Assembly: GCF_011045215.1 (NCBI RefSeq)
Contig: NZ_CP049201.1
Direction: 5' to 3' (one strand)
Length of the DNA: 64,000 nt
DNA from: Escherichia coli
GTDB taxonomy: Bacteria; Pseudomonadota; Gammaproteobacteria; Enterobacterales; Enterobacteriaceae
The first letter of the stretch is position 1, and the number at the start of each line of letters is the position of its first letter. Shown piece after piece: positions 9,001-18,000 of the stretch. The position numbers are program-made.

Positions 9001-12000
9001 ATCAATGGCGGAGAAATTTCCGGCCCAATTGTGATTAAAGGACGTTACATTGCCGGTGTTGGCGCAGAATACACTGATGCTCCGGCTTTGCAGCGGATTG
9101 ATGCCCGCGGCGCAACGGCGGTGCCAGGGTTTATTGATGCTCACCTGCATATTGAATCCAGCATGATGACGCCGGTCACCTTTGAAACCGCTACTCTGCC
9201 GCGCGGCCTGACGACCGTTATTTGCGACCCTCATGAAATCGTCAACGTGATGGGCGAAGCCGGATTCGCCTGGTTTGCCCGCTGTGCCAAACAGGCAAGG
9301 CAAAACCAGTACTTACAGGTCAGCTCTTGCGTGCCCGCTCTGGAAGGCTGCGATGTTAACGGTGCCAGTTTTACCCTTGAACAGATGCTCGCCTGGCGGG
9401 ACCATCCGCAGGTTACCGGCCTTGCAGAAATGATGGACTACCCTGGCGTAATTAGCGGGCAGAATGCGCTGCTCGATAAACTGGATGCATTTCGCCACCT
9501 GACGCTGGACGGTCACTGCCCGGGTTTGGGTGGTAAAGAACTCAACGCCTATATTGCCGCGGGTATTGAAAACTGCCACGAAAGTTATCAGCTGGAAGAA
9601 GGACGCCGGAAATTACAACTCGGCATGTCGTTGATGATCCGCGAGGGGTCCGCTGCCCGCAATCTCAACGCACTGGCACCGTTGATCAACGAATTTAACA
9701 GCCCGCAATGCATGCTCTGTACCGATGACCGTAACCCGTGGGAGATCGCCCATGAAGGGCATATCGATGCCCTAATTCGCCGCCTGATCGAACAACACAA
9801 TGTGCCGCTGCATGTGGCATATCGCGTCGCCAGCTGGTCTACGGCGCGCCACTTTGGTCTGAATCACCTGGGCTTACTGGCACCCGGTAAGCAGGCTGAT
9901 ATCGTCCTGTTGAGCGATGCGCGTAAGGTCACGGTGCAGCAGGTACTGGTGAAAGGCGCACCGATTGACGCGCAAACCTTACAGGCGGAAGAGTCGGCGA
10001 GACTGGCACAATCCGCTCCGCCGTATGGCAATACCATTGCCCGTCAGCCAGTTTCCGCCAGCGACTTTGCCCTGCAATTCATGCCCGGAAAACGCTATCG
10101 GGTCATTGACGTCATCCATAACGAATTGATTACGCACTCCCGCTCCAGCGTCTACAGCGAAAATGGTTTTGATCGCGATGATGTGTGCTTTATTGCCGTA
10201 CTTGAGCGTTACGGGCAACGGCTGGCTCCGGCTTGTGGTTTGCTCGGCGGCTTTGGCCTGAATGAAGGTGCGCTGGCTGCGACGGTCAGCCATGACAGCC
10301 ATAATATTGTGGTGATCGGTCGCAGTGCGGAAGAGATGGCGCTGGCGGTCAATCAGGTGATTCAGGATGGCGGCGGGTTGTGCGTGGTACGTAACGGCCA
10401 GGTACAAAGTCATCTACCGTTGCCCATTGCCGGGCTGATGAGCACCGACACGGCGCAGTCGCTGGCCGAGCAAATTGACGCCTTGAAAGCCGCCGCCCGT
10501 GAATGCGGTCCGTTACCCGATGAGCCGTTTATTCAGATGGCGTTTCTTTCTCTGCCAGTGATCCCCGCGCTAAAACTAACCAGTCAGGGGCTATTTGATG
10601 GCGAGAAGTTTGCCTTCACCACGCTGGAAGTCACGGAATGAAAAAAAGACCGTATTAGCTGATTTACGGAAAATATGTACTCCACAAGCGTCAATATCCG
10701 ACGAGGCCTGGGAAAAGATAATGTTGTCTGATGAAAGTAATCAGCAGCACATCCGTGAGGCTATTGTGGCGATGGAACGCAATAACCAGAACAATTACTG
10801 GGAAGCGTTAGGCAAGGTTGAATGCTCGGATATGTAGACGTGAAGCCGCAGCTTCACGTCATACATTTAGCACTTAACGTGAACGTACATCGGGAATAAT
10901 TAAATCACCGCGCAGAACATATGAACCCAGCATCGTCTGCGTCTTCTCGTTAAGCCAACTGACTATGCGGGCGGCCATTTCGTCCAGCGAATATTCTATC
11001 GCCGGAATGGTCGGTATCCCCGGAAGATGAACAGTACCCGCCAGACTAAATACCATAATGTCCTCAGGAACAGATTTATTAAACGCCTGCAATTGCGGTA
11101 TCACCCGCTGCGCTTGCTGTTCATCAGCAACTAATAACGCATTAAAGTTCAGTGTTGAGGCATTATTTAGCAGCTCCTGCAAAGCCACTGAGGAAGAGAT
11201 TGCTTCCATAAAAACCAGATTACGGTTAAAGGGAAGAAAGTTTTTCTCCAGCGCGTGTTTATAGCCCAGTAAGACCTGGTCAGAAAATCCCATACCGTGT
11301 GGGTGGATGAGGGCGATTTGGCGTCTGTTCTGACTTATCAGATAGTTACAAGCGGTTTCAGTCGCGAATATGTGATCGAACTGAATACTGTTAACATCAT
11401 TACCCGTCTCAAGGCAGTCCACCAGTATCACGTTTTCCTGATGAATATTCAGTGGGAAACGCGCACCAATAATCAGTACGTCATCACACAAACCACAGCT
11501 CAGCTCATCAAGGGCGTTCTTTACCTCGGCTTTATTGCTGGCGAAGCGAAGAAGTAGATGTTTTTGATGCTGGCTGAGATGTTTTTCCAGAGCGTAAAGA
11601 TAACCGGTGGTCTGATTAATGTTTTCCTGAGCACAAATTACACCGATACAGCCCGTAGATTGCGTCAGCAGTGACTGCGCAATGACATTGGGACGATAGT
11701 TTAGCTCTTCGACGGCTTTCAATACCGCGAGACGGCTGGCTTCTTTAACACCACGCGATCCGCTCAACACCCGAGAAACCGTCGCTTTTGAAACGCCAGC
11801 CAAACGCGATACATCATTGATAGTAGACATCATTCTCCCCTGACAGAGCGGCCCTGGCTCCCACAATCCTGAATTCCTGTTGGCTTAAATATTAGCCGTT
11901 CGCAGTATAACTGTTTCCGTTTTCTAATGGAAACCGATTTTCCATGGCATCTCAAAACTGAGCTAATAATGATAAAAATGTGAACAGAATCGAAATAATA

Positions 12001-15000: not shown

Positions 15001-18000
15001 ATTAGCGAAGGGTGTAATTGCCTTGGCTATCATATGTGGACGTTTATCGATAACTGGTCATGGCTTAATGCTTATAAAAATCGATATGGATTTGTTCAGC
15101 TTGATCTGGAAACGCAAACACGCACGATTAAAAAAAGTGGTGAGTGGTTTGCGACAGTTGCAGAAAATAACGGTTTTGATTGCGAGAAACAAAAATGATC
15201 GAATTAGAAGATGCGGTTATGGAAATAATCGTCAATGCCGGCCAGTCACGCAGCCTCTGTTTTGAAGCGTTACACGCGGCACGTGCCGGGAACTTTGATG
15301 AAGCCAAACAGCTGCTGCGTGAAGCTGACGGTTATTCGCGTCAGGCTCACCATATGCAAACCAAATTGATCGAACAGGATGCTGGTGAGGCCCGACAGCC
15401 AATGACATTAATTATGGTACATGCACAGGATCATTTAATGACATCAATGCTGGCACGAGAATTAGCAGAAGAAATAATTCATCTTTATCAAAGATAATTG
15501 ATTAATGCTTATGAGGAACATCTATTTGATAAAATAAAACCTCTGCTTTACCCAAGAATAAAATAGATAAACCACCTGTTTCGGTAGTTAAAAACAAGCT
15601 GAAACAGGCTGCTTATTATCATAAAACAAATTAATACACACCTTGTATTTATTATGCCCAACGCATAATGAATTATAACGTGTGCGTGAGATAATCATGA
15701 AAAAGATAAATACACTTCCAGTTACCCTGGCGGTTATTGCCGCTTTGTACTCAATATCTGCCCAGGCTCAGGAATTTACTCAGGAACAAATAGACGCCAT
15801 TGTGGCAAAAGCCGTCGATAAAGCATTAGCCGAAAGGCAAGAAAAAATGGATGCCGCGGCAGCGAAAAAAGTGGATGTGATTAACGAACCGGAAAGTGCT
15901 GCGCAGTCTCCGGATATGGCAATTCCCTTTGGCGTGAAATTTAGTGGTTATGCCCGTTATGGGGCTCATTTTCAAAGCGGCGATCAAAAATATGTTGCTG
16001 TAGACGGCTCCTATAATGGTGCATCTGCAATTGGTCGTCTGGGGAACGAAGGTAATGGCGGAGAGTTTCAGTTATCAAAAGCCTTCAAGAGCGATAACGG
16101 CGCAATCTGGGATGTCAATGTCATGATTGATCACTGGGGCGACGAAGTTAACCTGAAAAAAGCCTACGCTGGTGTCACCAATGTTTTGGCATCCAATCCT
16201 GACGCCTATATCTGGGCTGGTCGTGACTTCCACCAGCGCCCGCAACAGGGCATTAATGACTACTTCTGGATGACTCACGATGGTCAGGGTGCCGGGGTGA
16301 AAAATTTCGACATTGGTGGCATCAAGTTTGACCTTGCTACTGTCGCAGCGGTTGAATCCTGTAATCCTGAAGTGATGGAGGATGAGACCAATCCATCACG
16401 CATTACCTGTACTGGCGGGTCAGGAACGGGCGACAAAGGCAATTATGCGATAACGTCCAAAATTCATGGTATGAAACTGGGGCCACTGGATCTTGAGTTG
16501 TACGCTAACTACGGCTTCGACTCAAAAGCGGTCGAAGGTGAAGACAAACTGAAAGCCTGGCAGGGGGCATTTGTTGTAAGCCATAGCAATGACAGCGGAG
16601 TGAATAAAGTCATTGCCCGCTACTCTGATAATTCCGATAACAGTGTTTACAATAAAACTGACGATCTCACGACAATTTACGCCAGTTTTGAAGGTAGTCA
16701 TAAATTTACCCAGCAGGCGCAAATCGAGTATTTACTAGCCTTCCATGATTACGACAACAGTTCTATTAAGAGTGATAACCGCAAAAACTATGGCGTAATT
16801 GTCCGTCCTATGTATTTCTGGAATGACGTTCACTCCACCTGGCTTGAGGCGGGTTATCAACGGGTTGATTATGATAAAGGCGGAGATAATTCCGGCTGGA
16901 AGCTGACGCTGTCACAGAACATTTCTATTGCGATGGGCCCGGAATTCCGTCCAATGCTACGTTTCTACATGACGGGCGGGCAAGTTGATAATGACCGGAC
17001 TGCACGCGTTAACGGTACAAAAGAGGAAACGCTTGACGACTTTAACCTTGGCGCGATGTGGGAAGCCTGGTTCTGACAGGCCACTCACATTGAGTTAATG
17101 CAACCAAAACACGCCTTCTTCTGGCCGGAAGAGGGCGTTATAGCGTATCTGGAAGGCATTAATCTCCTGCATATCTGGCTCTAATTCACGGAGAAAACCC
17201 AGCGCCAGACGGACCTGGGCATCCGTGATCGGCGCAGCAAGACGCGCTTTTTGCAACAACCGATGCCAACGTAACAGGTTCTGCTCACTACCATCGACAA
17301 TCACAATTTGCCAGATAAGTAACACCTGAGCAGCATTTTGCAGATGAGATTCATCCGGGCGATGCAAATAATACAAAAACTCTTTACCAGGCATTTTACC
17401 CATCTGATCGATCATCGATTCTTCGGGTACAACATCAATATTAAGTCGTTCGCTTAAACGGCGAATCGCCCGTCGGGTGCCTGACGTCAGAACCCGAAAA
17501 CCAACCACAAACACCACCACGACGGTGGCAAGCATTATCCAGATCATGCGTTCTCCTGCGCATCAACTTTTGATGATATCTGGAAAACTCCCCCAGGCGT
17601 TAATCTGGTCAAATTGAATAAAAAAAGCCCGGCGTCATGCCGGGCAAAAGTCACCAGTTACGTTTATGCCACTGTCAACTGCTGAATTTTTTTCTCGCGG
17701 CGGATTTTGCGTTCTTCCATCACCGCCACTATCGCCATCAGGCAGATACAACCAATCGCGGCGATATCCAGCGCGGCGAAGGTGCCTGCCCAGCCGGTAA
17801 GGCCGAATACCGGCGTCCCATCGGCAATCATTCCCAGACCTAACTTGGCAAAGCTGTCACCAATCAGGTAAGCAAAGGTGCCTTTAATACCATCGGCAGC
17901 GCCAATCGCTTTTTTAGGTACAAAGCCAACAGCAGCCACACCAATCAACAATTGCGGGCCAAAGACCAGGAAACCCAACGCAAAGAGAGAAGCCAGATAG

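What the first reader, a model, noticed from the sequence alone, without database searches (positions are those of the whole stretch)
10874..17076. Inserted beta-glucoside-type PTS / GH1 / LamB-family porin cassette between ade and uhpT
A divergent LacI-family regulator, PTS IIB and IIC (lac/cel family), a GH1 6-phospho-beta-glucosidase, PTS IIA and a maltoporin-family outer membrane porin form a self-contained uptake and hydrolysis module, probably for cellobiose or aryl-beta-glucosides. Inclusion of a dedicated porin together with a lac/cel-family PTS is less common than for the bgl operon. As I recall, ade and uhpT are adjacent in K-12.
Basis: partly seen in the sequence, partly recalled or inferred. 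Interest (0 to 1): 0.45.

Follow-up and report, generated by a model that had tools for sequence, protein, structure and literature searches.

The report
Rare cellobiose-type sugar uptake cassette
This is an intact six-gene module for importing and splitting a beta-linked sugar, most likely cellobiose; it is native to Escherichia fergusonii and many other enterobacteria but sits at an unusual site in about 0.4% of E. coli genomes, so it is a recognisable kind of system but has not been studied experimentally.

Summary
Window 10874-17076 holds six intact genes: a divergent LacI-family repressor, PTS IIB, IIC, a GH1 6-phospho-beta-glycosidase, PTS IIA and a LamB-family porin.

The segment missing from K-12-like genomes is larger, about 10640-17619. 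It also carries a 5'-truncated yicS copy and a second yicN (DUF1198) copy. Only 24 of 5,426 complete E. coli genomes have it between ade and uhpT, all with the same junctions.

The same operon lies between yicS and yicN in Citrobacter, Enterobacter, Kosakonia and, at 97.9% nucleotide identity, in Escherichia fergusonii. Flanking core genes of the two species are only 93-96% identical. The E. coli copy is therefore an E. fergusonii-lineage segment placed on the other side of ade by microhomology joining. It has no integrase, IS element or tRNA gene.

The catalytic and phosphotransfer residues are present, and dN/dS is well below 1. Two conserved palindromic operators and two CRP-like sites sit in the divergent promoter region.

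Cellobiose is the most likely substrate, but this is inferred. The two cellobiose-positive "Escherichia" taxa (fergusonii, hermannii) carry the operon.

The E. coli bgc operon has the same parts but only 27-45% protein identity. This is a new member of a known kind, of modest interest.

The parts
10643..10837 (+). yicS' pseudogene fragment (codons ~33-96 of YicS), left end of the insert, fused to the ade stop codon
   Evidence: NCBIfam YicS_fam NF041639 scores 92.7 bits over profile positions 33-96 of 96. RefSeq marks it as a partial YicS pseudogene. The full-length yicS in E. fergusonii continues upstream of the junction.
10874..11830 (-). LacI-family repressor, transcribed divergently from the operon
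   Evidence: The best NCBIfam hits are LacI-family models at 100 bits or less, far below every equivalog cut-off. Precomputed Pfam hits are PF00356 and PF13377. The nearest solved structures are CcpA-type proteins, E 3e-24.
11927..11945 (.). operator O2, ATGGAAACCGATTTTCCAT, overlapping the -35 box of the predicted regulator promoter
   Evidence: Conserved block in an alignment of 23 genera. It is a repeat of O1 125 bp away (D10). A promoter-like site TTTCCA-18-TATACT lies on the minus strand at 11933..11904; the promoter scan as a whole found no more sites than chance would give.
11979..11994 (.). CRP-like site TGTGAACAGAATCGAA
   Evidence: Two mismatches to TGTGA-N6-TCACA. Partly conserved across genera. 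On its own it is not more than chance would give.
12020..12035 (.). CRP-like site TCTGATAGCCGTCACA
   Evidence: One mismatch to the consensus. The TGA-N6-TCACA core is conserved in 23 genera.
12052..12069 (.). operator O1, ATGGAAACCGGTTTCCAA (16-bp perfect palindrome TGGAAACCGGTTTCCA with a central CG), between the CRP-like site and the IIB ribosome-binding site
   Evidence: It is the only match in the 64-kb window with up to 3 mismatches; 0.03 are expected by chance. The core is invariant apart from one C/A position in 23 genera.
12122..12436 (+). PTS EIIB, lactose/cellobiose family
   Evidence: TIGR00853, E 2e-26. The CCSAGMSTS loop aligns with the same loop in solved cellobiose-type IIB 4MGE; ChbB (1IIB/1E2B) is also among the hits.
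12449..13780 (+). PTS EIIC, lactose/cellobiose family
   Evidence: TIGR00410 scores 367 bits (cut-off 236). The cellobiose IIC equivalog scores 367 (cut-off 434), the lactose IIC 275 and ChbC 199. The nearest solved structure is B. cereus ChbC 3QNQ, E 1e-66.
13801..15198 (+). GH1 6-phospho-beta-glycosidase
   Evidence: 49% identical to S. pyogenes SPy1599 (4B3K/5FOO), E 7e-150. Carries TFNEP (Glu165), ISENG (Glu364) and WSWLNAYKNRYG.
15195..15497 (+). PTS EIIA, lactose/cellobiose family
   Evidence: TIGR00823, E 3e-35. Aligns end to end with ChbA 1WCR. The His in VHAQDHLM falls on the position mutated to Glu in 2LRK/2WWV.
15697..17076 (+). LamB-family outer-membrane sugar porin with a ~55-residue N-terminal extension
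   Evidence: Pfam LamB PF02264 covers residues 82-459, E 1e-73. Maltoporin structures match at E 1e-13. The signal-peptide-like N-terminus ending AQA was read by eye.
17095..17547 (-). yicN' : second DUF1198 gene, E. fergusonii-type allele of yicN, right part of the insert
   Evidence: 85% amino-acid and 80% nucleotide identity to the native yicN at 6861-7313. 98% nucleotide identity to E. fergusonii yicN. dN/dS is 0.24-0.89 among E. coli copies.
17548..17619 (.). yicN' upstream region plus ~20 bp degenerate 3' end of an adeQ gene; right junction with the ade/uhpT terminator
   Evidence: Aligned with the native yicN-adeQ junction and with Citrobacter. The junction is identical in every E. coli carrier fetched that retains it (nine loci).
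10636..10648 (.). left copy of the imperfect direct repeat GAATGAAAAAAAG; the right copy GAATAAAAAAAG lies at 17616-17627
   Evidence: Read from the sequence. The recipient CACGG-AAT-AATAAAAAAAG and the donor yicS TCGGCA-AAT-GAAAAAAAGACC share the microhomology AAT.

Best explanation
**What it is.** A functional, repressor-controlled catabolic operon for a beta-linked disaccharide, most probably cellobiose and possibly also aryl-beta-glucosides.

**Proposed pathway (inferred from the parts).**
1. The sugar crosses the outer membrane through the dedicated LamB-family porin.
2. The lac/cel-family EIIC takes it up. It is phosphorylated on the 6-position of the non-reducing sugar by the relay EI/HPr to EIIA (His) to EIIB (Cys).
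3. The cytoplasmic GH1 6-phospho-beta-glycosidase splits it into glucose-6-phosphate plus glucose or an aglycone.
4. The divergent LacI-family repressor binds two palindromic operators 125 bp apart. One lies between a CRP-like site and the IIB start; the other lies over the -35 box of its own promoter. The phosphorylated sugar presumably releases it.
5. The CRP-like sites would add catabolite control.

**Origin.** The segment is the native yicS-[operon]-yicN region of the E. fergusonii lineage. It was inserted once into the A-rich stop/terminator region between ade and uhpT of an E. coli by joining at short microhomologies. It has persisted at low frequency under purifying selection.

**Shown versus inferred.** Shown: gene content, key residues, operators, distribution, junctions and relatedness. 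Inferred: the substrate, the inducer, expression in E. coli and the direction of the original transfer.
For: **The parts are what they appear to be**
- Family assignments for all six proteins. Pfam LamB covers porin residues 82-459, the whole of the profile.
- The GH1 is 49% identical to SPy1599, a GH1 named and cited as a 6-phospho-beta-glucosidase (reference 39 in PMC10360150). The NEP/ENG glutamates and the WSWLNAYKNRYG motif are conserved.
- The IIB cysteine loop and the IIA histidine are conserved.

**Regulatory sites**
- Operator O1 is unique in the window, with 0.03 matches expected by chance.
- O1, O2 and the CRP-like cores are conserved in 23 genera.

**The genes look maintained**
- All six genes are intact in every full-length E. 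coli carrier locus fetched.
- dN/dS is 0-0.08 for IIC, 0.06-0.27 for GH1, 0.01-0.18 for the porin and 0-0.05 for IIA.

**Substrate**
- The IIC scores higher against the cellobiose IIC model (367 bits) than the lactose (275) or chitobiose (199) models.
- Within Escherichia sensu lato only E. fergusonii and E. hermannii are cellobiose-positive (PMC8346766 Table 1; PMC6963453). Both carry the complete operon (E. fergusonii; Atlantibacter hermannii L058).
- Typical E. coli lacks it: only 32 of 5,426 genomes match any part of the insert, and 59 match the GH1 gene even at about 65% identity.

**Origin**
- The operon lies between yicS and nepI-yicN in Citrobacter, Enterobacter, Kosakonia, Leclercia and others, and between yicS and yicN in E. 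fergusonii.
- Window 10637-17587 is 97.9% identical to E. fergusonii, against 92.6% for ade and 95.8% for the uhp genes.
- dS is 0.056-0.075 for cassette genes, against 0.26 for ade, 0.21 for uhpC and 0.11 for uhpT.
- The E. fergusonii copy is sister to all eight E. coli copies in a neighbour-joining tree.
- The junctions are identical in all carriers.
- The flanks are E. coli-like right up to the junction.
- There are no IS ends, terminal repeats or Rfam matches, and no close plasmid copy.
Against: **Substrate**
- No experiment on this operon was found in nine literature searches, so the substrate rests on homology and on a species-level phenotype correlation.
- E. fergusonii may have other cellobiose routes.
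- The GH1 carries Trp at the position that is Trp in 6-phospho-beta-galactosidases and dual enzymes and Ala in BglA-type 6-phospho-beta-glucosidases (PMC10360150; BgcA has Ala). Galactoside or dual specificity is therefore not excluded.
- The best NCBIfam GH1 and IIC equivalog scores fall below their curated cut-offs.

**Expression**
- The regulatory region has only 39% G+C and the region before the porin 31%. The operon could be H-NS-silenced in E. coli, as bgl is.
- The promoter itself could not be placed; the promoter scan found no more sites than chance would give.

**Origin**
- The last ~30 bp of the insert (17588-17616) do not match the common E. fergusonii arrangement, so no sampled genome is the exact donor.
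- Cassette diversity within E. coli (up to 1.7%) is nearly as large as the distance to E. fergusonii (1.6-1.9%). The transfer is therefore old and its direction is not proven.
Confidence: 0.65

Rival explanations
1. The operon takes up and cleaves a beta-galactoside (lactose-6-phosphate type, as in LacEFG of Gram-positive bacteria) or has dual gluco/galacto specificity, rather than being a cellobiose system.
For: - The IIA's best NCBIfam hit is the lactose-type EIIA model TIGR00823.
- The second-best GH1 model is 6-phospho-beta-galactosidase PRK13511, at 355 bits.
- The GH1 has Ser-Trp in NWSW. According to PMC10360150, Trp at this position marks 6-phospho-beta-galactosidases and dual enzymes. 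BgcA of E. coli has Ser-Ala there.
Against: - The closest solved relative, SPy1599, has the same WSWLNAYKNRYG motif and is titled and cited as a 6-phospho-beta-glucosidase.
- The IIC scores 367 bits against the cellobiose model and 275 against the lactose model.
- The operon tracks cellobiose-positive, lactose-negative E. fergusonii (PMC6963453; PMC8346766).
Confidence: 0.15
2. In E. coli the cassette is a silent passenger: transcriptionally cryptic, like bgl or chb, and conferring no phenotype. Its low frequency then reflects slow loss rather than use.
For: - E. coli as a species is scored cellobiose-negative (PMC8346766).
- The regulatory regions are AT-rich, at 39% and 31% G+C.
- Two genomes have lost most of the cassette through IS1-mediated deletions.
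- It is present in only 0.44% of genomes.
Against: - All six genes are intact in every full-length copy fetched.
- dN/dS is far below 1, whereas the neighbouring yicN' copy is relaxed at 0.24-0.89.
- Synonymous divergence among copies reaches 0.05-0.10, which is time enough for decay had selection been absent.
- Operators and CRP-like sites are intact.
Confidence: 0.15
3. The cassette was not transferred from the E. fergusonii lineage. It is an ancestral Escherichia segment retained by a few E. coli lineages and lost by the rest, or the transfer went from E. coli to E. fergusonii.
For: - Cassette diversity within E. coli (up to 1.68%) is close to the E. coli-E. fergusonii distance (1.55-1.92%).
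- Carriers have diverse flanks; adeQ identity to the window goes down to 95.1%.
- Gene flow from E. coli carriers into E. fergusonii does occur. E. fergusonii CP056961.1 (L100) has the E. coli-type yicN'/terminator junction and E. coli-like uhpT and uhpC.
Against: - In E. fergusonii the operon sits at the same yicS-yicN site as in Citrobacter, Enterobacter and Kosakonia, with a full-length yicS.
- The E. coli copy has a truncated yicS, a duplicated yicN and a scrap of adeQ at a site where ade and uhpT are adjacent in Citrobacter and E. fergusonii as well. The E. coli arrangement is therefore the derived one.
- Cassette dS between the two species is 2-4 times lower than that of ade and uhpC.
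Confidence: 0.12

Closest known systems
E. coli bgc operon (bgcR / bgcE-F-I-H-A; Neelakanta, Sankar and Schnetz 2009, as described in PMC3585215 and the PMC5422975 supplement)
   Same: - It has the same set of parts: split lac/cel-family PTS IIB, IIC and IIA, a carbohydrate porin, a GH1 phospho-beta-glucosidase and a divergent regulator.
- It is an accessory locus, variably present among E. coli strains.
- It is reported to allow use of cellobiose, arbutin and salicin.
   Different: - It is not orthologous. Identities are GH1/BgcA 30%, IIC/BgcF 30%, IIA/BgcI 45%, IIB/BgcE 43%, and porin/BgcH 27% over 100 residues.
- Its regulator is a GntR-type activator rather than a LacI-type repressor.
- Its gene order is E-F-I-H-A rather than B-C-GH1-A-porin.
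- It lies between marB and eamA.
- BgcA is BglA-type (Ser-Ala), whereas this GH1 is SPy1599-type (Ser-Trp).
The orthologous operon at the yicS-yicN locus of Escherichia fergusonii, Citrobacter, Enterobacter, Kosakonia and other Enterobacterales (annotated, not characterised)
   Same: - It has the same six genes in the same order, with the same operators.
- Nucleotide identity is 97.9% in E. fergusonii. GH1 protein identity is 76-92% in other genera.
   Different: - In those genomes it lies between a complete yicS and (nepI-)yicN.
- In this E. coli it lies on the other side of ade, with a truncated yicS, an extra yicN and no nepI.
E. coli bglGFBH aryl-beta-glucoside operon
   Same: It combines PTS uptake, a GH1 phospho-beta-glucosidase and a LamB-family porin (BglH) in one operon (PMC2646131).
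   Different: - bgl uses a fused Glc-family EIIBCA (BglF) and the BglG antiterminator with RNA terminators.
- This cassette has no BglG gene, no Rfam match, a lac/cel-family split PTS and a LacI-type repressor.
E. coli chbBCARFG chitobiose operon
   Same: It uses a split lac/cel-family IIB, IIC and IIA. The IIA here aligns end to end with ChbA.
   Different: - chb uses a GH4 hydrolase (ChbF), a deacetylase (ChbG) and an AraC-type regulator, and has no porin.
- The IIC here scores only 199 bits against the ChbC model, whose cut-off is 760.
Streptococcus pyogenes SPy1599 (PDB 4B3K/4B3L), a GH1 6-phospho-beta-glucosidase
   Same: It is the closest solved relative of the GH1: 49% identity, with identical catalytic and C-terminal WSWLNAYKNRYG motifs.
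   Different: It comes from a Gram-positive host in a different gene neighbourhood, and its natural substrate is also unknown.
RegPrecise CelR, CelR2 and AscG cellobiose regulons (PMC4052901)
   Same: They are LacI-family repressors of PTS cellobiose genes in Enterobacterales, with cellobiose-6-phosphate as the proposed effector.
   Different: The regulator here could not be found among the sequences in that paper's stored supplement, which is truncated. By eye it differs clearly from the CelR, CelR2 and AscG sequences listed there. No alignment was run.

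Membership tests
PTS lactose/cellobiose (Lac) family, split IIA/IIB/IIC | Separate IIB (PF02302), IIC (PF02378) and IIA (PF02255) proteins | tested here: met
   NCBIfam TIGR00853, TIGR00410 (367 bits, cut-off 236) and TIGR00823. The precomputed Pfam hits on identical or near-identical genes agree.
PTS lactose/cellobiose (Lac) family, split IIA/IIB/IIC | Phosphorylatable Cys in the IIB P-loop and His in IIA | tested here: met
   CCSAGMSTS aligns with the same loop of solved cellobiose-type IIB 4MGE; ChbB is also among the hits. The His of VHAQDHLM aligns with the ChbA position that carries the H-to-E change in 2LRK. 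Which residues are the phosphorylation sites comes from established knowledge of ChbB Cys10 and ChbA His89.
PTS lactose/cellobiose (Lac) family, split IIA/IIB/IIC | PEP-dependent uptake and phosphorylation of a beta-linked disaccharide | not testable with these tools
   Requires transport assays.
GH1 6-phospho-beta-glycosidase | Acid/base Glu in NEP and nucleophile Glu in ENG | tested here: met
   TFNEP Glu165 and ISENG Glu364 align with FVHNEP and FLSENG of SPy1599.
GH1 6-phospho-beta-glycosidase | Phosphate pocket: Ser in place of the sugar-binding Glu of NFEW, plus a downstream Lys and Tyr | tested here: met
   NWSWLNAYKNRYG is identical to SPy1599 over WSWLNAYKNRYG. BgcA also has Ser...KKRYG. 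The roles of these residues come from established knowledge of LacG.
GH1 6-phospho-beta-glycosidase | Gluco versus galacto preference (Ala versus Trp after the Ser; PMC10360150) | tested here: inconclusive
   The residue is Trp, as in LacG-type and dual enzymes, yet SPy1599 has the same Trp and is described as a 6-phospho-beta-glucosidase.
LamB/sugar porin family | Full-length LamB beta-barrel domain with an export signal | tested here: met
   Pfam LamB covers residues 82-459 against profile positions 1-378 of 378, E 1e-73. The N-terminal signal-like sequence ending AQA was read by eye. The ~55-residue extension has no Pfam match.
LacI-family repressor with palindromic operator | N-terminal HTH plus a periplasmic-binding-protein-like effector domain | tested here: met
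   (PF00356, PF13377).
LacI-family repressor with palindromic operator | Palindromic operator with a central CG in its own promoter region | tested here: met
   TGGAAACCGGTTTCCA at 12053-12068 and a second copy 125 bp upstream, both conserved in 23 genera. Binding was not tested.
E. coli bgc operon | GntR-type regulator BgcR and orthologous BgcEFIHA proteins between marB and eamA | tested here: not met
   The regulator is LacI-type, protein identities are 27-45%, and the locus and gene order differ.
E. coli bgl-type operon | BglG antiterminator, RNA terminators and a fused EIIBCA of the Glc family | tested here: not met
   There is no such gene in the cassette, no Rfam match, and the PTS is split and of the lac/cel family.
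chb (chitobiose) operon | GH4 ChbF, deacetylase ChbG and AraC-type ChbR | tested here: not met
   None of these is present. The hydrolase is GH1 and the regulator LacI-type.
Classical genomic island or transposon | Integrase or transposase, a tRNA target, and terminal inverted or long direct repeats | tested here: not met
   No such genes are annotated. No terminal inverted repeats were found. Only a 12-13 bp imperfect A-rich direct repeat lies at the ends. No tRNA scan was run.

The most novel reading that the evidence does not exclude
This uncharacterised operon is the genetic determinant of the cellobiose-positive phenotype used to tell E. fergusonii (and E. hermannii) from E. coli, and it explains the rare cellobiose-positive E. 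coli isolates. It would also mark an old exchange across the species boundary in both directions: from the E. fergusonii lineage into E. coli at a non-homologous site by microhomology joining, and later from E. coli carriers back into some E. fergusonii, deleting ade there.
Probability: 0.45. Interest if true: 0.4.

Novelty: new member of a known kind. Interest (0 to 1): 0.27.

Why it matters
**Diagnostics.** If confirmed, this would give a gene-level basis for a textbook diagnostic trait, cellobiose fermentation in E. fergusonii versus E. coli. It would also give a marker for E. coli isolates that could be misidentified biochemically.

**Comparative biology.** It would add a third, independent PTS-plus-porin beta-glucoside system to the E. 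coli pan-genome alongside bgl and bgc. This one has a simple LacI-type switch whose operators are conserved across Enterobacterales.

**Genome evolution.** It is a clean example of a chromosomal segment moving between sister species without any mobile-element machinery, followed by long persistence at low frequency.

None of this changes current understanding of PTS sugar catabolism.

Tried and rejected
1. **RegPrecise regulators.** I looked for the regulator among the CelR, CelR2 and AscG regulators in the supplement of PMC4052901. Those sequences are clearly different, and no peptide of this protein was found in the stored, truncated file.
2. **Literature.** Nine full-text searches for a paper on this operon (cellobiose, porin, LacI, GH1, uhpT, fitness data, natural isolates, fergusonii, bgc) found no study of it. 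They did lead to the bgc operon and to phenotype tables. The original bgc paper (PMC2675225) is not held.
3. **Plasmid vector.** Rejected: the best plasmid copy is 76.6% identical.
4. **Transposon or island.** Rejected: no IS ends, inverted repeats or integrase.
5. **Citrobacter as donor.** Rejected: about 80% nucleotide identity, the same as core genes.
6. **Absence from other Escherichia species.** I first read the lack of E. fergusonii among the 80 loci of the genome-contig scan as absence from other Escherichia. That was wrong. A search with the yicN' protein, followed by contig and cluster look-ups, revealed E. fergusonii.
7. **E. fergusonii CP056961.1 (L100) as donor.** It lacks ade and shares the E. 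coli right junction. However, its uhpT and uhpC are E. coli-like while its cassette is E. fergusonii-like, so it is better read as a recipient of E. coli carrier DNA.
8. **Other E. coli GH1 hits at 66-81% identity.** These belong to different islands, not to this cassette or to bgc (L093-L095).
9. **Operon promoter.** It could not be placed convincingly; consensus scans gave no more sites than chance.

Full report
**1. What is there**

ORF listing and family searches confirm six intact genes in 10874-17076. With the start codons used by RefSeq on a 99.6% identical locus they are:
- a divergent LacI-family regulator, 10874-11830 (-)
- PTS IIB, 12122-12436
- PTS IIC, 12449-13780
- a GH1 hydrolase, 13801-15198
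- PTS IIA, 15195-15497
- a LamB-family porin, 15697-17076

The NCBIfam matches are to lac/cel-family PTS models, GH1 models and maltoporin. The regulator matches only generic LacI models, far below every equivalog cut-off.

**2. It is an insertion relative to K-12-like genomes, and it is larger than reported**

In a K-12-like genome ade and uhpT are 45 bp apart around one bidirectional terminator (L002). Of 5,426 complete E. coli genomes, 5,417 matched the query spanning ade to uhpT, but only 24 hold a place covering at least 80% of it. Every non-carrier row sampled covers only ade and uhpT. The identity range among carrier copies is 98.2-99.7%.

The extra DNA runs from about 10640 to 17619; the BLAST boundaries are 10648 and 17616. 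Besides the six genes it holds:
- a 5'-truncated yicS, 10643-10837 (YicS_fam profile positions 33-96);
- a second DUF1198 gene, 17095-17547, 85% identical in protein to the native yicN at 6861-7313;
- about 70 bp of yicN upstream sequence ending in a degenerate adeQ 3' end.

The ends carry an imperfect direct repeat: GAATGAAAAAAAG on the left and GAATAAAAAAAG on the right. There are no terminal inverted repeats, no IS or integrase genes and no Rfam matches. G+C is 47%, against 51% for the rest of the window.

**3. Where it comes from**

A scan of one genome per species with the GH1 protein returned 80 loci from Enterobacterales with 76-92% protein identity.

*Native site.* In Citrobacter, Enterobacter, Kosakonia, Leclercia, Pseudescherichia and others the same six genes lie between yicS and nepI-yicN. 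That is the next locus over from ade in E. coli. Of the 80 loci, 54 have all six genes. The yicS and yicN pieces at the ends of the E. coli insert are therefore remains of the operon's native neighbourhood.

*E. fergusonii.* A search with the yicN' protein found only E. coli-type sequences at 95-97% identity, then a gap down to Citrobacter at 88%. One of the 95% hits lies on a 121-kb contig. Its yicS, ade, GH1, porin and yicL proteins are exact matches to Escherichia fergusonii proteins. Five further E. fergusonii genomes were fetched:
- three show the order yicL, yicS (complete), regulator, IIB, IIC, GH1, IIA, porin, yicN', ade, uhpT;
- one has an IS element interrupting ade;
- one lacks ade.

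*Evidence for transfer after the species split.*
- Window 10637-17587 is 97.9% identical to E. fergusonii, while ade is 92.6% and the uhp genes 95.8% identical.
- Synonymous divergence is 0.056-0.075 for cassette genes, against 0.26 (ade), 0.21 (uhpC) and 0.11 (uhpT).
- The arrangement in E. fergusonii matches other genera, while the E. coli arrangement is the derived one. I therefore read the transfer as E. fergusonii lineage to E. coli.

*Left junction.* The recipient sequence CACGG-AAT-AATAAAAAAAG was joined to the donor yicS sequence TCGGCA-AAT-GAAAAAAAGACC. The product is CACGGAATGAAAAAAAGACC, so the ade stop codon TGA in carriers comes from yicS codons.

*Single event.* Both junctions are identical, apart from point changes, in all seven full-length carriers fetched. 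The three partial or relocated copies share whichever junction they retain. The flanks are E. coli-like right up to the junctions. I infer a single event.

*Age.* In a neighbour-joining tree the E. fergusonii copy is sister to all eight E. coli copies. The between-species distance is 1.55-1.92%, and E. coli copies differ by up to 1.68%. Carriers also have diverse flanks; adeQ identity to the window goes down to 95.1%. The event is therefore old and the carriers are not one clone.

*What does not fit.* The last ~30 bp of the insert do not match the common E. fergusonii arrangement. No sampled genome is the exact donor.

**4. Is it functional?**

*GH1.* It is 49% identical to S. pyogenes SPy1599 (4B3K/5FOO), a GH1 named and cited as a 6-phospho-beta-glucosidase (reference 39 in PMC10360150). 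TFNEP (Glu165) and ISENG (Glu364) are present. The C-terminal WSWLNAYKNRYG is identical to SPy1599. From established knowledge of LacG, the Ser replaces the Glu of non-phospho GH1 enzymes, and Ser, Lys and Tyr form the phosphate pocket.

*PTS proteins.* The IIB cysteine loop and the IIA histidine align with those of solved cellobiose- and chitobiose-type IIB and ChbA proteins. The IIC is related to B. cereus ChbC.

*Porin.* It has a complete LamB domain behind a ~55-residue extension.

*Selection.* All six genes are intact in every full-length E. coli copy fetched. Their dN/dS is 0-0.27, while the passenger yicN' copy shows 0.24-0.89. This argues for maintained function.

**5. Regulation**

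I aligned the divergent intergenic region from 23 genera. It shows:
- an almost invariant palindrome, ATGGAAAC/ACGGTTTCC, at 12052-12069 (O1);
- a second copy at 11927-11945 (O2);
- two blocks resembling CRP sites, at 11979-11994 and 12020-12035.

O1 is the only match in the 64-kb window, with 0.03 expected by chance. O1 and O2 start 125 bp apart, about twelve helical turns.

O2 overlaps the -35 box of a promoter-like site for the regulator gene, TTTCCA-18-TATACT on the minus strand, whose -10 box is conserved. This suggests autoregulation. The CRP-like matches are not above chance on their own; only their conservation supports them. I could not place the operon promoter.

**6. Substrate**

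This is inferred, not shown.

*For cellobiose or beta-glucosides:*
- The IIC scores 367 bits against the cellobiose IIC model, 275 against the lactose model and 199 against the chitobiose model.
- The closest solved GH1 is described as a 6-phospho-beta-glucosidase.
- Among Escherichia sensu lato only E. fergusonii and E. hermannii are cellobiose-positive (PMC8346766 Table 1; PMC6963453; PMC9895846). Both carry the complete operon.
- Typical E. coli lacks it.

*Caveat:* the GH1 has Trp where BglA-type enzymes, including E. coli BgcA, have Ala (PMC10360150). Galactoside or dual activity is therefore not excluded.

*From memory only:* Citrobacter werkmanii and C. youngae, which keep just the GH1 gene at this locus, are among the cellobiose-negative or variable citrobacteria. 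I did not verify this.

**7. Comparison with known systems**

- *bgc operon.* This is the closest characterised analogue in E. coli. It has a split lac/cel PTS (BgcE, F, I), a porin (BgcH), a phospho-beta-glucosidase (BgcA) and a GntR-type activator (BgcR), and it allows use of cellobiose, arbutin and salicin (PMC3585215, citing Neelakanta et al. 2009; PMC5422975 supplement). I fetched it from strain ECC-1470 and compared proteins. Identities are only 27-45%, the regulator is unrelated, and the gene order and locus differ. The cassette works like bgc but is not a member of it.
- *bgl operon.* It differs in PTS family and in its antiterminator control.
- *chb operon.* It differs in hydrolase family and regulator.

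**8. Verdict**

The finding is real and mostly well interpreted. It is a recognisable, annotated but experimentally uncharacterised beta-glucoside (probably cellobiose) PTS operon. It is rare in E. coli and originates from the E. fergusonii lineage. I class it as a new member of a known kind, of modest interest. The testable points are whether it underlies the diagnostic cellobiose phenotype and how the exchange between the species took place.

Noticed in passing
L100 (E. fergusonii CP056961.1) 10852-12359, compared with window 17548-19055: One E. fergusonii genome lacks ade and has the same yicN'/terminator junction as the E. coli carriers. Its cassette is E. fergusonii-like (99-100% to L098), but its uhpT and uhpC are E. 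coli-like (99.1% and 97.6% to the window). This suggests back-transfer from an E. coli carrier into E. fergusonii.
   Followed up: partly
L083 (E. coli LH50-c, NZ_CP100500.1) 5673-12431: A relocated copy of the cassette lies next to a xylA/GH43 island. It comprises 182 bp of ade 3' end, yicS', and the regulator through IIA, all at 99%. Its porin allele is divergent (82.6%), and a 150-bp porin 5' fragment sits upstream. This looks like integration of an excised circle into a paralogous porin gene.
   Followed up: partly
L084 and L085 (E. coli 14EC033 and CUWW06): Only the 3' part of the porin gene and yicN' remain. An IS1 element abuts the truncated porin gene, and a large deletion reaches tnaA or mdtL, removing ade, adeQ and many other genes.
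   Followed up: no
L006, L007, L008, L025 (Citrobacter werkmanii, C. youngae and two Citrobacter sp.): Only the GH1 gene (90-92% identity, full length) remains between yicS and nepI. The regulator, PTS genes and porin are gone.
   Followed up: no
window 6080-6746: A RelE/ParE-type toxin gene and an HTH antitoxin-like gene sit between nepI and yicN (RefSeq names; antitoxin-like NCBIfam hits). The HTH gene is present in all six further carrier loci fetched. Whether it is linked to the cassette was not examined.
   Followed up: no
window 1-4600: This ORF-poor-looking stretch is part of a very large inverse autotransporter adhesin gene (air/eaeX/iatC) that runs off the start of the window.
   Followed up: partly
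window 19069-19208: The uhpT-uhpC intergenic segment has no counterpart in the K-12-like locus or in some carriers. It is probably a variable repetitive element.
   Followed up: no
L037 and L044 (Yersinia thracica, Y. frederiksenii), regulator-IIB intergenic region: These Yersinia loci carry an extra, third copy of the GGAAAACGGTTTCC operator in a ~60-90 bp insertion before the IIB gene.
   Followed up: no
L093/L094 (E. coli 74-2 and F247) and L095 (E. coli H8): These are other rare E. coli islands with lac/cel PTS genes and a GH1 gene. One, inside an integrative element, combines IIC, a maltoporin, a CBM35 protein, GH1 and manA. The one in strain H8 has a truncated IIC, GH1 and IIA among IS elements, with no porin annotated. 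They are unrelated to this cassette or to bgc.
   Followed up: no
window 17095-17547 versus 6861-7313: E. coli yicN and E. fergusonii-type yicN' are only 80% identical in DNA, although neighbouring core genes of the two species are 93-96% identical. One lineage may have had this small region replaced from outside.
   Followed up: partly
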